From the IMG/VR virus record IMGVR_UViG_3300012942_000084, positions 1 to 38,456 of that record: 38,456 bases of DNA. One strand, written 5' to 3'. Position 1 is the stretch's first letter. Every line of letters starts with the position of its first letter. Shown in pieces: positions 15,329 through 35,104 of this stretch. The translations under genes were made by a program, and so were the position numbers. This DNA is from a virus (Duplodnaviria > Caudoviricetes). The notes under the pieces are model-generated. The model made no database searches. It worked only from the letters and a program-made list of their open reading frames with translations, and was not told the origin of the DNA.

Positions 15329-16603
15329 TCAGAACTCAACGGGATCACCGTCCCGGGTCGGGAAGCGTCCGGTGTGCTGCTGCCAGCGTCGGCAGATCAC
15401 GTCGACGTACCGCTCGTCGAGCTCCATCAACAGGGAGCGCCGGCCGGAACCGTATGCCGCGATCAGGGCCGAGCCTGACCCGCCGCACATGTCGAGGACC
15501 GTGTCACCGGGGCGAGTCGCGTTCTCGATGCCCCGGCGTACCAGGTCGACCGGCTTCATAGTCGGGTGCAGTTTCGACGCGGTCGGGCGCGGCACCTCCC
15601 ACACCGTGTCCTGCCGGCGCCCGCCCTCCCATGTGTGCCCGGCACCGTCAGCCCACCCGTACAGCAGAGTGGCGTGCGCGTCGTCATACAACGGTGGCTC
15701 GACCGGGTCAGCACCGTTTGCCCACCCGTGCAGAATCGTCTCGTGCCGCTGGTGGTAGTCCTGCCGGCCCAGGACGAACCGATCCTTCACCCAGACCAGC
15801 TGCTGTCGCAGGCGGAGGCCGGCGGTGTCGAGCGCGAGCCGAAACACGGTCTCCAACTCCCCAGACGGGGAGCAGACGTAGAACACGCCGCCCGGGCGGA
15901 GCACGCGCGCCGCCTGCTCGAAGATCTCCTCGAGCAGGATCCGCAGGCGGTCGACGGGCAGATCGTCGTTGACGATCGTCAGGTGCTCCTTCGTGCCGCC
16001 GACATACGAGACGCCATACGGCGGGTCCGTCCACACGACATCGACCACGGCGCCGCCGACCAGGACGTCGACGTCCTTCGCGGAGGTCGAGTCGCCACAC
16101 ATGACACGGTGCTCGCCCAGCACGAACACATCGCCACGGCGGGCGATCGGGTCGCCCTCGGCGAGCGCCGGCGCATCGTCCGGGTCGGTCAACGCCGGCC
16201 GGTCCTGGACCGACGCGAGCAGCTCGGCGAGCGCCGCGTCGTCGTACCCGGTGCCCTCGAGCTCCGGGAGTGACGACAGCAGGTCCGCGAGCGCCTGGTC
16301 GTCGTACCCGGCAAGGTCGTTCGCGCGGTTGTCGATCAGAACGATGCGGGCCGCGGTGTTGTCGTCGACGTCGACCCACGTGACCGCGATCTCCGGCCAG
16401 CCGAGTGTGCGCGCAGCCGCCAGCGTGTGATTGCCGGCGAGCACCTGGTGGTTGCGCCGGTTCGCGACGATCGGCCGATACTGGCCGTGATGGCGCAGCG
16501 AGTCCGCGATCAGAGTCACGTCGCCGCGGCGCGGGTTACCCGGGAACGGCCTAAGGTCCTCGAGCGGCACCATCGCCGACCCGTCCACGATCACCGCTTC
16601 CAT
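15329..16603 (-). CDS. ParB/Srx domain fused to N6A/N4C DNA methyltransferase (beta class)
   Basis: NPRRG...VLAGNH ParB-like N-terminus; DPPY motif IV precedes HPTMKP and DMCGGSGS motif I. Confidence 0.93.
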   Translation of the reverse strand: MEAVIVDGSAMVPLEDLRPFPGNPRRGDVTLIADSLRHHGQYRPIVANRRNHQVLAGNHTLAAARTLGWPEIAVTWVDVDDNTAARIVLIDNRANDLAGYDDQALADLLSSLPELEGTGYDDAALAELLASVQDRPALTDPDDAPALAEGDPIARRGDVFVLGEHRVMCGDSTSAKDVDVLVGGAVVDVVWTDPPYGVSYVGGTKEHLTIVNDDLPVDRLRILLEEIFEQAARVLRPGGVFYVCSPSGELETVFRLALDTAGLRLRQQLVWVKDRFVLGRQDYHQRHETILHGWANGADPVEPPLYDDAHATLLYGWADGAGHTWEGGRRQDTVWEVPRPTASKLHPTMKPVDLVRRGIENATRPGDTVLDMCGGSGSALIAAYGSGRRSLLMELDERYVDVICRRWQQHTGRFPTRDGDPVEF

Positions 16604-22506: not shown

Positions 22507-22862
22507 CCTTCGACCTCGAGCGTGCACGGCCCGTTGTGCGCCTCGTGGAAGTCCGCCAGGTGCCCGCAGCCGACGCAGACACCGTTACCGCTCGGCGACA
22601 GCTCCTCGCACCCACACTGGCGCAGAGCCACTGCCCCAGACGCCGGGCGGGCATGGAACATCCCATCCGGGATCCCGGCCGCCCTGGTCTCTTCCGCGGG
22701 CGGGGTCGTGATCGCCTCACACAACTGCCTGACCACCTCGACCAGCGCGAGAGTGGCATGAGCCTGAGCCCGGTCGAGCATGAACTGCGTCCAAGGCCCG
22801 GCTTCTTCACCGTTGGCGTTCTCGATGTCCGCGAGCGCGGCGGCGACATAATCCCGGCTCAC
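22503..22862 (-). CDS. Hypothetical protein with Cys/His C-terminus
   Basis: Coupled at both ends; AQAHATLAL motif; CGC...C..CGH...H. Confidence 0.7.
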   Translation of the reverse strand: MSRDYVAAALADIENANGEEAGPWTQFMLDRAQAHATLALVEVVRQLCEAITTPPAEETRAAGIPDGMFHARPASGAVALRQCGCEELSPSGNGVCVGCGHLADFHEAHNGPCTLEVEG

Positions 22863-24349
22863 GACGCCGCCCCGGCGTTGCCATCGATCAGGGACTGCTC
22901 GAAATCGGACCACTTGTAGCCCCAGATCCTCGGGACGTCCTGCAGCCAGTTCCCGCAGATCGAGTAGTTCTCGGTGTCCTTCCAGCCGGATGCCGTTGTC
23001 GCGAGCGAATCCTCTGCGGACAGGTTCAGCTCCGAGACGAGAACGAGCTGGACGGCGGTCATGCCGTCGATGGCCTTGCGGATCCGGTCCGCCAGGCCCG
23101 GTCGGTCGAGGGAATCTTGGGTGGCGTTCGGTAGCACCACCTCGGCGAGGATCCGTTGCTCTTTCAGCGCCCACTGCGTCTTGCCGGCAAGGACGGTCTT
23201 CAGCTTCCGCATGATCAAGGCCCTGGCGACGTCCTCGGCCTCGGGTGCGTTGATCACGTCGCCGAGGAAGTGGCGGCGGGCGACTGCGGTCGCGCCGAGC
23301 TGCAGTTGCAGCTCGGCGCGGGCACGTTCCTCCTGCTCCCGTGTTTCGCGACGACGCGCGGCCTCCTCTTCGGACAACGTCGAGGTCGCTTCGGTGGCGC
23401 CGGCGGCGGTGCTGTCGTGTGGGTGCCGCAACGGTTCAGCGCAACCATGCTCGACGAAGATCCGGTTGCCGTAGACCTCGACGTGGGCGAACGCGCCGGG
23501 GCAGTCCTTGTGCGCCTCGACCGCGACCCGTTTCCATTCCTGGTCGTTTGCGCTGTCCGGGTCCAGATCGTCCGCGGCGCCTAAGGCTGATGCCGGCAGG
23601 TCTTCCAAGGCGACCCAGTCATCCAGGTCGTCGGTCTGCTCCCGGCTCAGGATCCGGATGCCCTTCGCCTTGAGGTCCTTCTTGATCTTCGCGAGCTCGC
23701 GCTCGTTCTTCTTACGCATCTCGAGCTCGGCGAGCTGGTTGTCGAACTGCCACTTGCCCAGATCCGCGGCCTTCTGCAGCTGGCCGATCGCCGCGGCATC
23801 GCCCGCGAACTTCGCCATGCGCTGCGCATCCTCGAGCGTGAGCTGACCCTCGCTGATCCGCTCACGTGCCGACTCCGGCAGCCCGGCCACCTTCACCAGC
23901 GCCGCGACCTTCGTCTTCGGCCGAGACACTCGCTGGGAGATCGTGGCCGTGTCCCAGCCGAGGTCGAGCAGCTCCTGGTAGGCGTCGCCCTCCTCCACCG
24001 CCGTGAGGCCGGCGCGCTGCAGGTTCTCCACGAGCATCCGGGCGACCTGGTCCTCCAGCGAGGAGGCCTCCGGTTGCACCATCGCCGGCAGGGACGTCAG
24101 ACCGGCCGCCTGCGCGGCCGCCAGGCGCCGGTGCCCGTGGATCAGCAACCACTTTCGGGCGCCGGGCTCGGTGTCGTCCGGGAACGGTTCGACCACGATT
24201 GGCTCGAGCACGCCCTGCTCAGCGATCGAGGCGGTCAGTTCCTTCAGGTCACCGAGCGAGTGCCGCGGGTTCTTCGGATGCGGTGCGATTGTGTCCGGGT
24301 CCAGGTCCTGCAGCGTCGCTGCCGGCCGAGTAGTAGCGGTTCTTGCCAT
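22859..24349 (-). CDS. ParB/RepB/Spo0J-family protein
   Basis: HPKNPR...L..SI...GVLEP, GHRR, ENLQR..L...EE..AY; HTH follows. Confidence 0.9.
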   Translation of the reverse strand: MARTATTRPAATLQDLDPDTIAPHPKNPRHSLGDLKELTASIAEQGVLEPIVVEPFPDDTEPGARKWLLIHGHRRLAAAQAAGLTSLPAMVQPEASSLEDQVARMLVENLQRAGLTAVEEGDAYQELLDLGWDTATISQRVSRPKTKVAALVKVAGLPESARERISEGQLTLEDAQRMAKFAGDAAAIGQLQKAADLGKWQFDNQLAELEMRKKNERELAKIKKDLKAKGIRILSREQTDDLDDWVALEDLPASALGAADDLDPDSANDQEWKRVAVEAHKDCPGAFAHVEVYGNRIFVEHGCAEPLRHPHDSTAAGATEATSTLSEEEAARRRETREQEERARAELQLQLGATAVARRHFLGDVINAPEAEDVARALIMRKLKTVLAGKTQWALKEQRILAEVVLPNATQDSLDRPGLADRIRKAIDGMTAVQLVLVSELNLSAEDSLATTASGWKDTENYSICGNWLQDVPRIWGYKWSDFEQSLIDGNAGAAS

Positions 24350-24387
24350 GAGTCTTGATCTCCAATACGGACGGAACGGATTGAGGG

Positions 24388-24669
24388 TTAACGGGATTCG
24401 GGTGCGCGCATCGGACGCACCCATGTGCCTGGGCCGGGCCGGCGAGACAGGACGTCGTGCAGCATTGCCAGCACTTCGAGCCGGAACGCCGGATCCTCCT
24501 GAAGGTCGTGACCGATCCGGTGCCTCACAGACCGCGCGACGAGCTCAGCCGTGGCCCGGCCGGTTCCCGGGCTGACGTGCGAGATCCACGTGCCGATTCC
24601 GGAGCTGATGCCGGAGAGGTACACGTTGAGCAAGTCCTCATCGGTGACTGTGAAAGTCTGCTTGTCCAT
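24388..24669 (-). CDS. Hypothetical protein (93 aa)
   Basis: ATG 24669 with GGAGGAG RBS. Confidence 0.7.
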   Translation of the reverse strand: MDKQTFTVTDEDLLNVYLSGISSGIGTWISHVSPGTGRATAELVARSVRHRIGHDLQEDPAFRLEVLAMLHDVLSRRPGPGTWVRPMRAPESR

Positions 24670-25782: not shown

Positions 25783-26498
25783 GACGGCTGTCCGTCGTGA
25801 CCGTCGGCGTACGCGACCGGCATGCCGACTGCGAGCGCGACGTCACGTTCGAGGCGGGCGCCGCGGGAGTGCCACCAGTCCTCGAGCATGAGGATCGAGT
25901 CGCAACCGAGGAGGACGAGCAGGTCGGTGCGCATGAAGCACGTGGATGAGGTGTGCACGGTCGATGTGTCGCCGGGTGAGTACCCGTCCGGACACGCGGC
26001 GGCGTGGCTGAGCGGTTCAATATCGAACGGGTTCACCGGGTCTTTGCCGTCGTATGCCACGTCGAGCGCGGCGGCGCGGAACCGGTCGGCCGCGTCGGGG
26101 ACGCCGGAGATCGGTCCCGACAGGTAGACGCGCTCGGTCGCGAAGTGGATGTCGCGGCGTTCGAGCGCCCCCAGCCAGGAGATGGCGACGGCTGCGACCT
26201 GGGTGAGTTCGGCCGACAGCGTGCTCGACCACGGGTCGTGTGCTTCGGCGAACGCCTCGGCAACCTCCTCGAGGAGGATCTGCCGCCACGTCACCCCACC
26301 GTTGCGGGCGGAATTGTCTGTGTCGCGGCGGGCCGTTCGGCAGATCGTTGACGCGTCGTCGTCGCGGGCGATCTGTGCCGCCCACCGGACATACCCGCCC
26401 GTGCCGGACGGGTGGTTCTGCTCGCCCCATTTCGCGTCCTGCCGGGTCCGCTCCTGGACCACCTGGGCGAGGATCCGCAGGTCCTGCAACGTCGTCAT
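25779..26498 (-). CDS. Fusion of MazG-like NTP pyrophosphatase and DUF4406 (NDT-like) domain
   Basis: RQDAKWGEQNH...ILLEEVAEA...EL.QVAAVA..W, then VYLSGPISG...NP...CD.I.ML..W..SRGA.LE...A. Confidence 0.8.
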   Translation of the reverse strand: MTTLQDLRILAQVVQERTRQDAKWGEQNHPSGTGGYVRWAAQIARDDDASTICRTARRDTDNSARNGGVTWRQILLEEVAEAFAEAHDPWSSTLSAELTQVAAVAISWLGALERRDIHFATERVYLSGPISGVPDAADRFRAAALDVAYDGKDPVNPFDIEPLSHAAACPDGYSPGDTSTVHTSSTCFMRTDLLVLLGCDSILMLEDWWHSRGARLERDVALAVGMPVAYADGHDGQPS

Positions 26499-27610
26499 GG
26501 CATCTCCCGGTCACAGCACGCGCACGTGCCCGTCTGTACCGAATCGGCGACGATCTTGCGACGCTCATCGGCGCGGATCACCTGCTCCCAGCACGCCCCG
26601 CACGCCGTCCGCGCAAGGTGTGTGCCGCGTGGGTGCCCGTTCTGGGCGCAGAGCTGACGGGCGAACGTCACCAGCCGGTGCGTCTCCGACAGGTGCGGGC
26701 CGGTGTCACGGTGGCCACGGGCCCGCCCCGAGACGGCGCGGCCGCGGGCGACCGCGTCCTGGACGCGCAGCTCGCCGGAGCGGACACGGCGCTGGTCTTC
26801 CGGGGTTAACGCGAGCAGCGCCAACCTCGAGGACACCCACACCTGGGACTTGCCGATCTTCGCGCCGACCTGCGAGTGCGTGGAGATCGAGTACTGCACC
26901 ATCAAGTGCTGCACCGCGCGCGCCTCCTGGATCGGGTCCAGGTCGCGACGCTGAGAGTTCTCGATCAGCATCGCCGCCAAGACCTCGGCGCGACCCATTT
27001 CCTCACGCACGACGCACGGCACCGTCGGCCAGCCGAGACGTTTGCACGCCGCGTGCCGGCGATGGCCGGCCACGATCTGCAGCGTCCCGTCCGGGCGACG
27101 CTGCGCCACGATCGGCTGCAGCAACCCGGCCTGCGTGATCGACGCGACCAGGTCGTCCAGGTCCGCGTTGATGTCCTCACGGGGATTGTCGGCATCCGGG
27201 TGCAAGTCGGCGACGGGCACGTCGACGAGTTCCTGCGCCGCGGCCGACGACGCGCCACGCATCACCGCCGGCTCGACCACGGGTGAGACCACGCCGGGCC
27301 GTTTGAACCGCTCGAACTTGCCGCGCGGCGCATACCCGACAGGCTCGTCGAAGTCGCGACCGAAGTCCGCCAGACCACGGTCCACGAGCGGCGACCGCGA
27401 CTCCGCCGGGGCGTTCGCTGCCTTCACCATGCCGGCCAGGACGTCCCGAGCCTTCATCATGTTGTCGAACACGGGATAGCCGTGGTGCGACGCGATGTCG
27501 AGCACTTCGCTGCGGCCGAGACCACACGTCTGCGCGGCCGCGTCCAGGTCCGGATTATCGACCAGCGCCTCGACGACCTCGAGGCGCACCTTCGCGTCAT
27601 ACGCAGTCAT
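26495..27610 (-). CDS. Second ParB/RepB/Spo0J-family protein
   Basis: DNPRE...L.ASI.QAGLLQP, AGHRR, EN.QRRDL.PI.EA, HTH, Cys-rich C-terminus. Confidence 0.9.
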   Translation of the reverse strand: MTAYDAKVRLEVVEALVDNPDLDAAAQTCGLGRSEVLDIASHHGYPVFDNMMKARDVLAGMVKAANAPAESRSPLVDRGLADFGRDFDEPVGYAPRGKFERFKRPGVVSPVVEPAVMRGASSAAAQELVDVPVADLHPDADNPREDINADLDDLVASITQAGLLQPIVAQRRPDGTLQIVAGHRRHAACKRLGWPTVPCVVREEMGRAEVLAAMLIENSQRRDLDPIQEARAVQHLMVQYSISTHSQVGAKIGKSQVWVSSRLALLALTPEDQRRVRSGELRVQDAVARGRAVSGRARGHRDTGPHLSETHRLVTFARQLCAQNGHPRGTHLARTACGACWEQVIRADERRKIVADSVQTGTCACCDREMP

Positions 27611-27831
27611 CACCGGACACCTCCCGCCACGGGCAGGTCGCCCTGGTCCTCGACCAGGAGCACACCGGTCAGGACGTCGGGGTCGGTCGCGATCTTCCGC
27701 AGCCGGGCAGCCATCCATTCGATGCCGTCACCCACACCCACGTGGTACGGGCACGTGTTCTCCATCGCTTCGCAGGCCGCGCAGTCCTCGGCGTCCGTGC
27801 GGTCGAAGTCCAGCAACACGTTGTGTGCCAT
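27610..27831 (-). CDS. Hypothetical protein (73 aa, CxxC...CxxH)
   Basis: TGATG-coupled at both ends. Confidence 0.65.
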   Translation of the reverse strand: MAHNVLLDFDRTDAEDCAACEAMENTCPYHVGVGDGIEWMAARLRKIATDPDVLTGVLLVEDQGDLPVAGGVR

Positions 27832-29999: not shown

Positions 30000-30635
30000 A
30001 TGAGTACAGCACCGACAGAGCGTGTGGACCTGCGGTTCGACCTAGTGGACCGCTTGCACAAGTCCCTCCGGGTCTCGCGTAAGACCGCGGGGCGGATTGC
30101 CGAAGACCTCGACACTCACCGCAACACCGTTGCGAACTACTTGTCGGGACGTAGTCAGCCGAAGCGCGAAACGCTCGCGGGGTGGGCGTTGGCCACCGGT
30201 GTACCTCTCCGCTGGCTCGAGTCCGGTGACATGGGTCCGAGTGGTGGACCTGATGGATCGTCCGGTCAGCTCTCGACCGCGTCTGTGGGCGCGATCCGTG
30301 CTGGGATTTCGCAAGTGATCGGCCGGGACGTCGACATGATCACGTTTGCGCTGGTCGCTGAGGCCCTCGGCGGACACGACGACGAGATGCTCGCGAAGAA
30401 CGGATTCACGGCGTGGATCATCGCGACGGCATCAGGCTTCGACGCGAAGGCGCGCGGTCTCTCGCAGTTCGTACCCGCGTACATAGATGAAGACCGCCTC
30501 GCGAGTGATCTTCGCAAGGCGGTCGATGAGTGCACCCGTAGGGATTCGAACCCCAAACCTTCTGATCCGAGGTTGGCAGCTCCCGTCGTTGAGCTATTTC
30601 CGCTCCTGACGCTACCTGACCGGGTCGCGTCATGA
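30000..30635 (+). CDS. Immunity repressor (XRE HTH) containing attP
   Basis: DRLHKSLR...IAEDLDTHRNTVANYLSGR..P......WALATGVPL.WLESG; attP core encodes CTRRDSNPKPSDP. Confidence 0.92.
   Translation: MSTAPTERVDLRFDLVDRLHKSLRVSRKTAGRIAEDLDTHRNTVANYLSGRSQPKRETLAGWALATGVPLRWLESGDMGPSGGPDGSSGQLSTASVGAIRAGISQVIGRDVDMITFALVAEALGGHDDEMLAKNGFTAWIIATASGFDAKARGLSQFVPAYIDEDRLASDLRKAVDECTRRDSNPKPSDPRLAAPVVELFPLLTLPDRVAS
30531..30569 (-). other. attP common core = 3' half of tRNA-Arg(ACG)
   Basis: Reverse complement CGGATCAGAAGGTTTGGGGTTCGAATCCCTACGGGTGCA gives anticodon 3' side, T-arm with GTTCGAATC and acceptor 3' strand; no 5' half present. Confidence 0.9.
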
Positions 30636-31455: not shown

Positions 31456-32456
31456 AAAGGGATCAGTACGCTCGTCGGCCGGGTGTCAAGATGTCACATC
31501 TCCGTATAGTCCCTGGTGCGTTCCTGGGAAGTGGCTGCGCGAACGTCTTTGCGGCTGATAGGAATTCGGTCATGAACGACGTCCCGGGGGAGGCCTGGCA
31601 ACAGCCCGCACTGCCGATCGCAAACGACTTCGACGACACACTCGAGGCGTGGAAACGCCACCAGGTCGCGGCCGCGCACAGCAAGCGCACCATCCAGTCA
31701 CGGACCTACCTGATTCGCCGCTTGCGCCGGCAGGGCATCGACCCGCTGACCGCGTCCCGCGACGAGCTCACCGACTGGCTCAGTGCACTCACCAAACCGG
31801 ACACGGACGAGCTCGTCGAACGGTCCACGCTGGCGACGTACCAGTCCTATCTGCGTGCGTTCTACAGCTGGCTGCAGGACACCGGCCGGCGCGACGACGA
31901 CCCATCGCTGAAGCTGCCGAAACCGCACGCACCACGCGGAGTGCCGCGCCCCCACTCGCTCACCCAGGTCCAGGCGATGCTCGCGGCCTGCTCGGACTTC
32001 CGCACCCGCCAGACCAGGGCGTACATCATCCTCGCCTGCTACGCCGGCCTGCGAGCGCACGAGATCGCCAAGGTCCGCGGTGAGGACCTGGTCGGCGACC
32101 AGCTGCGGGTCCGCGGCAAGGGCGGCAAAGACGCCACCATCGGTGTCCACCCGAAGGTCGCGCAGCTCGCGTTGACAATGCCCACCCGCGGATGGTGGTT
32201 TCCATCAGACAGTATTGCTGGACACGTCCACCGGTGTTCGGTTTCGAGCGCCATCAAACGGGCGATGAACCGCGCCGGTGTGCCCGGCACGCCCCACGCC
32301 TGCCGACACTTCTACGGCACGCAGGTGCTCCGGGCCACCGGCAACCTGCGCCTCGCCCAACGGGCCCTGCGGCACGCGAGCCCAGCCACCACCGCGATCT
32401 ACACGAAGGTGTTCGATGATGAACTCCTGAACGCGATCGCCGCCATACCCGCATGA
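31452..32456 (+). CDS. int: Tyrosine integrase, no evident N-terminal arm-binding domain (start may be ATG 31572)
   Basis: GLRAHE, GKGGK, HACRH, LRH, TAIY catalytic motifs; ends AIAAIPA. Confidence 0.95.
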   Translation: MKRDQYARRPGVKMSHLRIVPGAFLGSGCANVFAADRNSVMNDVPGEAWQQPALPIANDFDDTLEAWKRHQVAAAHSKRTIQSRTYLIRRLRRQGIDPLTASRDELTDWLSALTKPDTDELVERSTLATYQSYLRAFYSWLQDTGRRDDDPSLKLPKPHAPRGVPRPHSLTQVQAMLAACSDFRTRQTRAYIILACYAGLRAHEIAKVRGEDLVGDQLRVRGKGGKDATIGVHPKVAQLALTMPTRGWWFPSDSIAGHVHRCSVSSAIKRAMNRAGVPGTPHACRHFYGTQVLRATGNLRLAQRALRHASPATTAIYTKVFDDELLNAIAAIPA

Positions 32457-32755
32457 GAAGGCTGACCATGGCACCAGACCACACCGCCGCGTCACTCACC
32501 GAACCGCTCTCGATCGCGGACGACACCATGCCGCTGGCGTCCGCCCTGCGCGTCCTCGGCGTCAGATCCCGGCTCGAGGCACTCCAGATGCTGATGGACG
32601 GACCTCGACTGACGGCGCAACTGCCAGCACGCCACGACGAGCTCAACATGCTGCAAGACGTCGGGGTCGTCACCAGCGTCCCGGAAGGCCGGACCTGGCG
32701 ATGGTCGCTGGTCCCCGAAGCCTTGGAGAAGGTCGCGGACTGTCTGAAAGGCTGA
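32453..32755 (+). CDS. ArsR-like winged-helix protein (shortened HTH)
   Basis: LRVLG..SRL..L..L..GP...L...GVV....EGR...WSL; ATGA-coupled to int. Confidence 0.7.
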   Translation: MRRLTMAPDHTAASLTEPLSIADDTMPLASALRVLGVRSRLEALQMLMDGPRLTAQLPARHDELNMLQDVGVVTSVPEGRTWRWSLVPEALEKVADCLKG

Positions 32756-32759
32756 CGCG

Positions 32760-33104
32760 ATGTCGGGATCCACGCGCACACTGGAGCTCGTGAACCACGG
32801 GATCGCGCAAGGTGCCGACAAGCCCTCCGGCCCGCGCGCCCTGGCGAACGCGTCCTGGCCGCGGTTCCCCCGCCGAGTGCCGACGAGGCCACGGATCCCC
32901 GTCACAGTCCGGCTGGTGTGGTCCGACAAGGAAGAGTGGGTCCACGGCCACGCGACGAGGTGGTCCGGACGCCACGTGTTCGTCGCGGTCTGGCACGACC
33001 GAGTTCGACCCGTGCACGGGGTCTGGGTCGATGCCGCTGACGTCCGACGCTCGGCCCGGGCCGGGGTCGAGAAGGTCTCAATTTCGGCAAAACCGCGTAC
33101 GTGA
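32760..33104 (+). CDS. Hypothetical small beta-rich protein
   Basis: PVTVRLVW...EEW..G.A.RW....V.V...VWV.A.DV.R pattern. Confidence 0.65.
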   Translation: MSGSTRTLELVNHGIAQGADKPSGPRALANASWPRFPRRVPTRPRIPVTVRLVWSDKEEWVHGHATRWSGRHVFVAVWHDRVRPVHGVWVDAADVRRSARAGVEKVSISAKPRT

Positions 33105-33206
33105 CGGCTTCCCGACGAGTATGACTTGGGGACGGCTCGGGGGCCGCGGAGCGCAACCCCGCGACGCCGAACAGAGGGCGACGCGAACGATCGGAGGTGG
33201 GTTCGG

Positions 33207-33734
33207 ATGCCAATCCCGCCGATCGACCCACGGACGGGTTTGCTGCCAGCGGCAGCTGGGGCATACAGCGCCACACTGCAAGAGATTGAACAGCAATTCG
33301 TCGTGCACGCGCCCAACGCGCTCCAACGCGCCGACATCTTCGCTGCCCTTTGCTTGTGGGTCACCCGGGTGCGTGCCACCTTCGGGACCGGGCGTGTCTG
33401 GATTGATGGCGGTTTCGTCACCCATAAGGCACCGCCGCCGCATGACGTCGACGTCGTCTTCATCCCAGACGACCCTGGTCGAGTGAACGATGAATTACTC
33501 ATGGCGGAGGGGTACGACCTCCTCACCTTGCAACAGCTGTTCTTCCTGCATCCAGCACCGGGTGGGACACTAGAACGACTGCAACCTGTCGGTGGTCTCG
33601 TCGATGCTTTTATTGCGGACCCGCGGCGGCCCGACGTACTTCAGTCTTGGGCGACACTGTGGTCAGCGGTCAAACTCGATGACGGATCGATCTCACAAAA
33701 TCAGACGAAGGGCTACTTGGAGGTGATTCTGTGA
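33207..33734 (+). CDS. DUF6932-like polymerase-beta-family nucleotidyltransferase
   Basis: GLLP N-terminus, WIDGGFVTHK..P.DVDVV (GG/GS + DxD), later VDAF, C-terminal KG; GGAGG RBS. Confidence 0.8.
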   Translation: MPIPPIDPRTGLLPAAAGAYSATLQEIEQQFVVHAPNALQRADIFAALCLWVTRVRATFGTGRVWIDGGFVTHKAPPPHDVDVVFIPDDPGRVNDELLMAEGYDLLTLQQLFFLHPAPGGTLERLQPVGGLVDAFIADPRRPDVLQSWATLWSAVKLDDGSISQNQTKGYLEVIL

Positions 33735-34636
33735 CGAACGTGCTGCAACTCCGCGAGGAAATCGCTCGTATCGCTGCGGAGACCCACCAGGATCGTCTTG
33801 CGGAGGTTGCGAGTGACGGACTCGTCATGGCCTTCGACAAGGTCGTGCCTCGAGTCATGGCGATCCGCGGCGCCGCCAGCATCGCGCTAAGTGTCCAACC
33901 AGGCATCGGTCGGCTCACTTCACGCCAGTCCGCCCAGACGCAAGAACGGTTCGCACGAGCTGTCGCATCCATTGGGCACGAGATCTCACGGCCCCGAGAA
34001 CCCACCACAAGGCTGACGCAGGCGGACTACGCTCGCGCACCGATCTTCACCACCACGACACCGGCGGGCCTCCTCGTCTTCACGCCCGCTCGGGGGGCAC
34101 TGGTTGCGGAAGACGAAACAGAGTCATTGTCCGAGCGCGCAATGTCGCGGTTAGCCGACCTGCTGCCGGCGCGAGACCAGGACGATCTGCTCCAGGAACG
34201 CCTACTCTCGCTCCGAGTTCCGTCTGCACGTGCGGTTCATGAGGTGGCGATGGTCGCCAAGTCAGTCGGTGGCCTCGAGCTATCGCTCGTAACAACAGAT
34301 GATGAGACGCACGTCACTTCGGTGGTCACCTACGACCAAGCCGACTGGATCGAGGATTTCCTCGACGACCAAAGCGAGTCGGTGGTCCGCCAGCGTGTGA
34401 AGGGACGCCTCGACGGGATGCGCTACAAGCGCCGAATGTTCTACCTTGAGGCGGACGGCGGTGCGGAGTTCTCCGGCACGATCGATGAGTCGCTAGTCGA
34501 CCGCGTGAGCCACCTTGTGAACGAGCCCGTAAACGCCGTGCTCGAGAAGGTGACCCGAACCAGCCGAGCCGGTATCGAACAACGGCCGACCTATCGACTC
34601 GTTGGGGTCAGCGAGCAAGATTTGAAGATGCTGTAG
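33731..34636 (+). CDS. Uncharacterised 301-aa partner of the nucleotidyltransferase (possible C-terminal OB-like domain)
   Basis: GTGA-coupled with GGAGG RBS; beta-rich C-terminus VKGRLDG...FYLE...FSG...YRLVGV. Confidence 0.8.
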   Translation: MTNVLQLREEIARIAAETHQDRLAEVASDGLVMAFDKVVPRVMAIRGAASIALSVQPGIGRLTSRQSAQTQERFARAVASIGHEISRPREPTTRLTQADYARAPIFTTTTPAGLLVFTPARGALVAEDETESLSERAMSRLADLLPARDQDDLLQERLLSLRVPSARAVHEVAMVAKSVGGLELSLVTTDDETHVTSVVTYDQADWIEDFLDDQSESVVRQRVKGRLDGMRYKRRMFYLEADGGAEFSGTIDESLVDRVSHLVNEPVNAVLEKVTRTSRAGIEQRPTYRLVGVSEQDLKML

Positions 34637-34650
34637 ATGGTCGAACGACG

Positions 34651-34693
34651 AAAAGGCCCCGCCCGAGCGCGTAGCTCGAGCGGGGCCTTCGTT
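34651..34693. terminator. Intrinsic terminator between convergent accessory cassette and lysis operon
   Basis: AAGGCCCCGC.CGAGC / GCTCGAGCGGGGCCTT stem; T-tract on the minus strand, TTCGTT on the plus strand. Confidence 0.8.
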
Positions 34694-34708: not shown

Positions 34709-35104
34709 TCAGCCGCCGGCGGCGTCCTCGGTGAAGATCCCGTCCGGGATCGGTACGCAGGGCACGGTCTGCCCGGCGAGCACGTGCGTCGAATCGGGGA
34801 GGAACTGCCATTGCCCGTCGCGCACGAACGAGTGGCACCTGGTGTCGTCCCCGGGCTCGACGCTCGGGTGCCGGTGCTTCACGAACTCCGGGTACTCCGG
34901 CGGCCACTGGGCGCCGTGCACCAGGATCGACGGGCTGATCGTCGGCTTCACCCGGTCGCCATCCCACGTCCACTGTGGCCCGAGCTGCTCGCCGGCCGTT
35001 CCACCGAACTGGACCCGGTGCAACTGCTCGCAGCCCGGGCACCACAGCCACAGGGATGTGCCACGCCGCCCCGGCTGGGACGCCGGGTCGGTGCGGACGA
35101 TCAC
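34709..35104 (-). CDS. DUF6527-like Cys/His protein
   Basis: WCPGC...H, W.WDGD...PT.SPSIL, RCHSFVRDG..QFL.D.TH.LAGQTV. Confidence 0.8.
   Translation of the reverse strand: MIVRTDPASQPGRRGTSLWLWCPGCEQLHRVQFGGTAGEQLGPQWTWDGDRVKPTISPSILVHGAQWPPEYPEFVKHRHPSVEPGDDTRCHSFVRDGQWQFLPDSTHVLAGQTVPCVPIPDGIFTEDAAGG

What the first reader, a model, noticed from the sequence alone, without database searches (positions are those of the whole stretch)
33207..34636. Candidate undescribed two-gene defence/toxin-antitoxin system: DUF6932-like nucleotidyltransferase plus 301-aa partner
Seen: two translationally coupled genes (GTGA), each with a GGAGG RBS, visibly richer in A/T-ending codons than the structural genes. 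They are oriented with the lysogeny genes, closed by a terminator, and sit between int and lysis. Gene 1 has a minimal Pol-beta NTase signature (GG-FVT-K, DVD, third Asp). Gene 2 has no motif I recognise (no HEPN RxxxxH, no TM) and a possible C-terminal OB-like domain. Established: this slot carries prophage-mediated defence genes in temperate actinophages, and minimal NTases act in MNT-HEPN, AbiE/MenAT and CBASS systems. Inference: a new NTase-based module in which the enzyme modifies the partner or tRNA, or makes a signal, and the partner is sensor or effector.
Basis: partly seen in the sequence, partly recalled or inferred. Interest (0 to 1): 0.8.

Follow-up and report, generated by a model that had tools for sequence, protein, structure and literature searches.

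The report
Prophage nucleotide-transferase toxin with modular partner
This soil-phage gene pair is a distant member of a catalogued but unexplained candidate anti-phage system (PDC-M63), and its relatives suggest that the small nucleotide-transferring enzyme is likely a toxin, predicted to be held in check by the first two helices of a partner whose remaining part also appears beside other toxins and may be a reusable sensor.

Summary
In detail: two GTGA-coupled, low-GC3 genes; gene 1 is a DUF6932 minimal Pol-beta nucleotidyltransferase and gene 2 ends in an OB fold. It is not undescribed. Gene 1 hits PADLOC PDC-M63A, and gene 2's family aligns end to end with true PDC-M63B proteins (94.7%), although the PADLOC model misses gene 2 itself. 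PDC-M63 is an untested candidate; the one deletion test I found saw no defence. The pair is tightly linked (42 of 46 loci) and sits directly behind the repressor in five named temperate phages, the lambda rexAB slot. New here: DUF6932 partners nearly always start with a short helical hairpin, which occurs alone, on an HTH, on HTH plus ImmA, or on gene 2's core plus OB. The same core, without the hairpin, lies beside VapC/PIN toxins. Best reading (0.5): the enzyme is the toxin, the hairpin its inhibitor, and core plus OB a swappable sensor. Binding, toxicity, substrate and defence are untested.

The parts
33193..33197 (+). Ribosome-binding site (GGAGG) of gene 1
   Evidence: sequence
33207..33734 (+). 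Gene 1: DUF6932 minimal Pol-beta nucleotidyltransferase, 175 aa, PDC-M63A-like; predicted toxin
   Evidence: Pfam PF22014 E 2.8e-20; PDC-M63A E 3.6e-11; phrog_9194; model pLDDT 94.6, best matches minimal NTases 2rff and 1ylq, Z 6.0
33408..33452 (+). Catalytic motif G68-G69-F...K74...D80-x-D82 (third aspartate D133 at 33603-33605)
   Evidence: conservation
33719..33723 (+). Ribosome-binding site (GGAGG) of gene 2, inside gene 1
   Evidence: sequence
33731..34636 (+). Gene 2: 301-aa remote PDC-M63B homologue; predicted antitoxin/sensor
   Evidence: family profile vs four enterobacterial PDC-M63B proteins 94.7%, E 5.7e-8, 264 columns; no direct Pfam or PADLOC hit
33740..33844 (+). Gene 2 residues 4-38: two-helix hairpin, inferred NTase-binding module
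   Evidence: helices in model; partner classes and swaps; binding itself not tested
33881..34363 (+). Gene 2 residues 51-211: alpha/beta core with no solved match; shared with PIN-linked proteins and, weakly, PDC-M32A
   Evidence: predicted phage structures with DUF6575 match at E 8e-14
34370..34615 (+). Gene 2 residues 214-295: OB fold
34653..34689 (.). GC-rich hairpin, probable terminator between the pair and the convergent lysis genes

Best explanation
[quoted passage not shown] The rest of gene 2 (alpha/beta core plus OB fold) would be a sensor. On meeting an infection cue, most plausibly single-stranded nucleic acid or a phage protein, it would release the enzyme, which would add nucleotides to an essential target (tRNA ends by analogy with MenT) and arrest the infected lysogen. 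Shown: fold, catalytic motif, linkage, PDC-M63 homology, partner classes, phage slot. Inferred: polarity, hairpin binding, sensing, target, defence.
For: (1) Catalytic-type residues are invariant in the enzyme, whereas gene 2's family conserves mostly Gly/Leu positions. Its best-kept polar motif, D228-G-x-R231, is absent from the enterobacterial PDC-M63B proteins, and it has no membrane helix. (2) Among 93 DUF6932 loci the coupled downstream gene is core(+OB) in 63, hairpin+HTH in 9, hairpin+HTH/ImmA in 6, a 66-74-aa hairpin alone in 6, and other, cut or none in 9. HTH_3 or Peptidase_M78 was confirmed for the 5 partners scanned; the 3 of these given to PADLOC hit the RosmerTA antitoxin RmrA. 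(3) The hairpin follows the enzyme while the tail swaps. L080 has the stand-alone/HTH-type hairpin (E 3e-10) on a gene-2 core, and its enzyme groups with the hairpin-alone enzymes. L014 has the gene-2-type hairpin (E 4e-10) on an unrelated domain. (4) Where the core occurs without the enzyme it lacks the hairpin and precedes a PIN toxin: L127 and L130 align from gene-2 residue 53 (97%; reversed control 0.1%); the L130 neighbour is VapC-like (E 2e-7) and the L113 neighbour is PIN. (5) L045 keeps an intact-looking enzyme with a partner cut to 74 aa that retains the hairpin, and L046 keeps the partner with a frameshifted enzyme. Both are metagenome bins, so the breaks may be errors. (6) Directly behind the repressor in prophiGD21-3, Holliday, mEpX1, PhiR30_1 and vB_EhrS_59. 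(7) Precedent: the 68-aa MenA1 blocks MenT1 by helix binding (PMC10435456, passages).
Against: Deleting PDC-M63AB in E. coli NILS69 changed nothing against 10 virulent phages (10.1101/2024.12.20.629700, passages). The gene-2-type hairpin shows no sequence homology to the HTH-type or stand-alone hairpin above reversed controls, so 'one module' rests on position, predicted shape and two swaps. L080 is a long branch with support of only 84 in a quick tree. The nearest solved folds of gene 1 are MNT-type enzymes, which are antitoxins, and the order enzyme-then-partner also fits MNT-HEPN. L041 has an intact enzyme and a partner frameshifted within the hairpin (bin). Gene 1 is not DUF1814 (MenT1 E 0.45), so tRNA as target is only an analogy. 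OB folds need not bind nucleic acid: the top matches are metal-binding SilF. Several loci lie between housekeeping genes.
Confidence: 0.5

Rival explanations
1. MNT-HEPN-like polarity: the enzyme is the antitoxin and silences gene 2 (or its hairpin) by nucleotidylation; gene 2 is the toxin.
For: Best solved matches are minimal NTases, including HI0073 and a HEPN-MNT complex. The enzyme comes first in the operon. HTH-type and stand-alone hairpins end in a conserved Tyr that could accept a nucleotide. PF22014 weakly picks up MNT-HEPN-like loci L067-L069.
Against: Gene 2 has no HEPN motif, membrane helix or family-wide catalytic residue. The hairpin Ser is only 62% conserved and is Gly in this protein. 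Partners carry antitoxin-type HTH/ImmA parts. L046 keeps gene 2 beside a frameshifted enzyme.
Confidence: 0.2
2. Same toxin-antitoxin polarity, but the role is upkeep of the prophage or element (addiction, control of lysogeny), not anti-phage defence.
For: Negative deletion test. HTH-type partners are classic autoregulated modules. 10 of 32 loci have an integrase, transposase, resolvase or phage gene among the nearest two genes on either side, against 5 with defence-type genes (no control).
Against: PDCs were drawn from genes embedded in BREX/DISARM/RM systems (10.1101/2024.01.29.577857, passages). The rexAB-type slot. A 250-residue core plus OB is more than addiction needs.
Confidence: 0.15
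3. Signalling system: the enzyme makes a nucleotide messenger that gene 2 binds and acts on (CBASS-like).
For: Pol-beta fold; CD-NTases appear among the weaker fold matches (CdnE Z 5.0); an OB fold could bind an oligonucleotide.
Against: At 175 aa the enzyme is about half the length of the CD-NTase chains (272-374 residues). There is no recognisable effector domain and no CBASS model hit. Partners of 66-74 aa could hardly be receptor and effector at once.
Confidence: 0.1

Closest known systems
PDC-M63AB (PADLOC phage defence candidate; Payne et al. 2024 preprint), e.g. the pair behind cI in coliphage mEpX1
   Same: DUF6932 enzyme followed by a coupled ~300-aa protein with the same N-terminal RS[LM] helix, core and C-terminal region; prophage location.
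   Different: Very divergent: gene 2 escapes all PDC-M63B models and has no significant BLAST match to the mEpX1 protein (E 0.15). GG instead of GS in the motif. Here it lies between int and lysis, not directly behind the repressor.
MenAT1 (MenT1 NTase toxin with the 68-aa helical antitoxin MenA1)
   Same: Works like it in the best reading: a Pol-beta-type enzyme and a short helical inhibitor; stand-alone DUF6932 partners are 66-74 aa.
   Different: MenT is DUF1814, gene 1 is DUF6932 (E 0.45 to MenT1). Gene 2 adds a core and an OB fold. tRNA modification is not shown.
MNT-HEPN (type VII toxin-antitoxin)
   Same: Minimal NTase fold, enzyme first, coupled genes.
   Different: Partner is not HEPN; polarity is probably reversed.
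PDC-M32, PIN-linked core+OB proteins and DUF6575 proteins
   Same: Share gene 2's core+OB: PIN-linked L127/L130 97%; PDC-M32A weak but colinear, E 0.001-0.003; a DUF6575 phage protein by structure, E 8e-14.
   Different: No hairpin and no NTase; other end domains and other partners (VapC/PIN, PDC-M32B). The link to PDC-M02B (DUF4365 partner) was not significant (about 1%).
Lambda rexAB slot (recalled)
   Same: Two accessory genes directly behind the repressor in five named temperate phages.
   Different: No Rex model was hit and there is no membrane protein.

Membership tests
PDC-M63 | A component matches the PDC-M63A model | tested here: met
   E 3.6e-11 over residues 16-89; PADLOC's own cut-offs are not shown by the tool
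PDC-M63 | B component matches a PDC-M63B model directly | tested here: not met
   0 hits for gene 2; 1 of 12 close relatives at E 0.0015. PADLOC would not call this locus.
PDC-M63 | B component homologous to PDC-M63B proteins over its length | tested here: met
   profile-profile 94.7%, 264 columns; distant members of gene 2's family hit PDC-M63B down to E 2e-14
PDC-M63 | A and B adjacent, same strand, A first | tested here: met
   window; 42 of 46 loci
PDC-M63 | Anti-phage activity | not testable with these tools
   untested candidate; one negative deletion test
MNT-HEPN | HEPN RNase partner with RxxxxH | tested here: not met
   no strict RxxxxH, no HEPN Pfam hit, alpha/beta plus OB model
MNT-HEPN | Minimal NTase fold with DxD | tested here: met
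MenAT / AbiE | DUF1814 (AbiEii-type) toxin | tested here: not met
   Pfam gives DUF6932 only; MenT1 E 0.45
MenAT / AbiE | Nucleotide transfer to tRNA 3' ends | not testable with these tools
   needs biochemistry
CBASS | CD-NTase cyclase | tested here: inconclusive
   no model hit; weak fold match Z 5.0, tied with other NTases; protein much shorter
CBASS | Effector with nuclease, phospholipase, TIR or membrane domain | tested here: not met
   none by Pfam, PADLOC or hydropathy; the core's fold has no solved match, so a new effector is not excluded
Type II toxin-antitoxin | Toxicity of one gene, rescue by direct binding of the other | not testable with these tools
   needs expression tests; no complex prediction was obtained

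The most novel reading that the evidence does not exclude
Gene 2's core plus OB fold is an undescribed, reusable infection-sensor chassis. Through swappable end pieces it is wired to unrelated toxic enzymes: an N-terminal hairpin for DUF6932 nucleotidyltransferases (PDC-M63), a C-terminal tail for VapC/PIN RNases, other domains in PDC-M32 and DUF6575 proteins. DUF6932 would be a new nucleotidyltransferase toxin family, distinct from MenT/AbiEii, and several separate PADLOC candidates would be one system family.
Probability: 0.3. Interest if true: 0.8.

Novelty: new member of a known kind. Interest (0 to 1): 0.5.

Why it matters
PDC-M63 is catalogued but has no mechanism in the papers I could search, and DUF6932 returned no paper. 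The partner classes give a direct, cheap hypothesis: which gene is the toxin, which 45 residues neutralise it, and which part senses infection. A laboratory E. coli phage (mEpX1) carries the pair in the rexAB slot, so the test is easy. If the shared core is a sensor, it would link several orphan candidate systems. The actinobacterial clade, including pairs in mycobacterial and Gordonia phages, is missed by the PADLOC B models used here, so defence inventories of these hosts likely undercount it.

Tried and rejected
'Undescribed system' was rejected. HEPN, CBASS and DUF1814 membership were rejected or unsupported (see tests). Complex prediction of gene 1 with gene 2: the queue was full, so no job ran and there is no verdict. 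Homology of the gene-2-type hairpin to the HTH-type hairpin: not detected. Link to PDC-M02B: not significant. Gene 2 residues 1-213 were not folded and searched alone, so the absence of a solved match is weak. Foldseek rows for Bax1 and release factors (E 0.01-0.04), NCBIfam UreE (E 0.03) and Pfam CdrL_M were treated as chance. Single-sequence scans of viral contigs found nothing; the metagenome scan returned only the window's own contig; tblastn with distant gene-2 relatives in plasmids and phages was blank. No RNA holder was listed. L047, L054, L131 and L132 were dropped as false matches. Literature: DUF6932 0 papers; PDC-M63 1 paper; four-term NTase/OB search 0; NetFlax plus nucleotidyltransferase 0. 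No mention in passages of PMC13092281, PMC13069673, PMC8092301, PMC9934374 or 10.64898/2026.10.19.760177. Brenes and Laub 2025 is not held and may have tested lambdoid pairs. The bioRxiv supplements of Payne 2024, and DefensePredictor Table S1 and its supplementary PDF, could not be seen and may describe PDC-M63.

Full report
The window is a linear virus record, 61% complete by CheckV. It has structural genes on the minus strand, a repressor-like HTH gene at 30000-30635 and a tyrosine integrase ending at 32456. The described pair is there as stated: 33207-33734 (175 aa) and 33731-34636 (301 aa), GTGA overlap, GGAGG sites, GC3 of 0.66 and 0.72 against 0.85 for the integrase, and a strong hairpin at 34653-34689 facing the convergent lysis genes. 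Two short ORFs lie between int and the pair.

Gene 1 is Pfam DUF6932 (E 2.8e-20). Its model (pLDDT 94.6) matches Pol-beta-family enzymes. The best are the minimal NTases 2rff and 1ylq at Z 6.0, with no match above Z 8, so it is its own branch. R41, P78, D80 and D82 are invariant in 104 aligned family members, and D133 is kept in 81%. Gene 2 has no Pfam, PHROG or PADLOC hit. Its model (pLDDT 94.4) shows two N-terminal helices (4-38), an alpha/beta core (51-211) and an OB fold (214-295; Z up to 9.1). The profile search found 191 relatives at E 0.001 or better.

The pair is catalogued. Gene 1 hits PADLOC PDC-M63A (E 3.6e-11). Distant members of gene 2's family hit PDC-M63B models down to E 2e-14 (118 proteins scanned, most with no hit). 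Coliphage mEpX1 carries a bona fide PDC-M63AB (E 1.8e-41 and 7.5e-45). Gene 2's family profile aligns to it and three enterobacterial relatives over 264 columns (94.7%, E 5.7e-8), although direct BLAST fails (E 0.15). [quoted passage not shown] The only test I found deleted a prophage PDC-M63AB in E. coli NILS69 and saw no effect with 10 phages (10.1101/2024.12.20.629700, passages). DefensePredictor's tables list an E. coli pair of 181 and 309 aa with a 4-base overlap and a Pol-beta hit as predicted defence genes. The 181-aa protein's accession did not appear in the tables of tested systems, and I could not confirm that the pair belongs to this family (PMC13092281, supplements).

Linkage and context. 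Of 47 loci from a genome scan with gene 1's clade, 46 hold the enzyme, and 42 of these have a gene-2 homologue directly behind it. The exceptions are a contig end (L024), a truncated partner (L045), an interrupted enzyme without partner (L042) and a different partner (L014). In prophiGD21-3, Gordonia phage Holliday, mEpX1, PhiR30_1 and Erwinia phage vB_EhrS_59 the pair lies immediately behind the repressor, the position of rexAB in lambda (recalled). The mEpX1 pair is in 18 of 5426 E. coli genomes. Among 32 actinobacterial loci (125 nearest ORFs scanned), 10 have mobile-element or phage genes and 5 have defence-type genes, while several sit between housekeeping genes (no control, so no enrichment claim). 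DUF6932 was found in 15, 13 and 17 of three draws of 401 genomes, the first and third overlapping in part.

What the partners show. I classified the coupled downstream gene in 93 loci with a near full-length enzyme. The own locus, four duplicates and weak or partial matches were dropped, and about half the sample comes from the window's own clade. Results: 63 core(+OB), 9 hairpin+HTH, 6 hairpin+HTH/ImmA, 6 hairpin alone (66-74 aa), 9 other, cut or absent; 62 have the exact 4-base overlap. The hairpin classes were assigned with a profile built from those same proteins, but stand-alone and HTH-linked hairpins are independently homologous (97%). HTH_3 or Peptidase_M78 was confirmed for the five partners scanned, and three were scanned against PADLOC and hit RmrA antitoxin models. 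Two loci show swapping. L080 joins the HTH-type hairpin (E 3e-10) to a gene-2 core, and its enzyme groups with the hairpin-alone enzymes (support 84, long branch, quick tree of 86 rows). L014 joins the gene-2-type hairpin (E 4e-10) to an unrelated domain. Against this, the gene-2-type and HTH-type hairpins are not detectably homologous to each other.

The reverse search is as telling. Gene 2's profile hit 10 of 281 genomes: four with the enzyme, one fragment, two false, and three (L127, L128, L130) without the enzyme. L127 and L130 align from gene-2 residue 53, so they lack the hairpin, and they add an acidic C-terminal tail (97%; reversed control 0.1%; they were selected by this profile, so the figure is inflated). 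The gene behind L130 is VapC-like (E 2e-7); those behind L127 and L128 look PIN-like by eye in broken frames. L113, a PDC-M32A-like protein (E 2.5e-55), also precedes a PIN gene. PDC-M32A aligns weakly but colinearly with gene 2's core (E 0.001-0.003), while PDC-M02B does not reach significance. A DUF6575-containing phage protein matches gene 2's model at E 8e-14 over 262 columns.

Mechanism. The simplest reading is a type II toxin-antitoxin design. The conserved enzyme is the toxin; the hairpin, which can stand alone, is the inhibitor, as the 68-aa MenA1 is for MenT1 (PMC10435456, passages); and what follows the hairpin (HTH, HTH-ImmA, or core plus OB) sets regulation. In this phage the core plus OB would sense infection and free the enzyme. 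Binding, toxicity, target and defence are all inferred, and no complex model was obtained. I give this 0.5, the MNT-like reverse polarity 0.2, a non-defensive upkeep role 0.15 and messenger synthesis 0.1.

Verdict. A real, well-conserved module, but a new and divergent member of a named candidate system, not an undescribed one. Its value lies in the testable polarity and in the possibility (0.3) that gene 2's core is a sensor chassis shared by several orphan systems. Interest 0.5.

Noticed in passing
window 34712-35104 (-); L110 3033-3330 (-): A DUF6527 gene (Pfam E 2e-12, phrog_3362) ends the lysis cassette, convergent on the pair. A Bradyrhizobium plasmid locus also has a DUF6527 gene convergent right behind its pair. 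May be coincidence.
   Followed up: no
window 32468-32755 and 32760-33104 (+): An ArsR-like HTH ORF (E 1e-4, below cut-off) and a 114-aa ORF without family hits lie between int and the pair, with host-like GC3 of 0.81-0.82.
   Followed up: partly
L057, L058, L106-L109: DUF6932 enzymes coupled to hairpin+HTH+ImmA/IrrE proteins (L108: ImmA hit only), a RosmerTA-like antitoxin layout with a possibly new toxin class; L108 lies beside Tn7 tnsE on an Acinetobacter plasmid.
   Followed up: partly
L077, L079, L081, L082, L088, L089; L073 2953-3120: Minimal modules: DUF6932 plus a 55-74-aa helical protein, in Acidobacteriota-phylum draws and Streptococcus phage MissE1.
   Followed up: partly
L113 905-2253 (-), L127, L128, L130: Core+OB proteins with C-terminal tails directly before PIN/VapC-like genes; not seen named in the libraries used.
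   Followed up: partly
L112 2595-2975 (+): PDC-M32B (126 aa) has no Pfam or solved-structure match.
   Followed up: partly
L014 5489-6052 (+): Gene-2-type hairpin fused to an unknown beta-rich domain with no Pfam hit.
   Followed up: partly
window 15329-16603, 22859-24424, 26495-27718 (-): Three ORFs look ParB-like by eye (recalled motif, not scanned).
   Followed up: no
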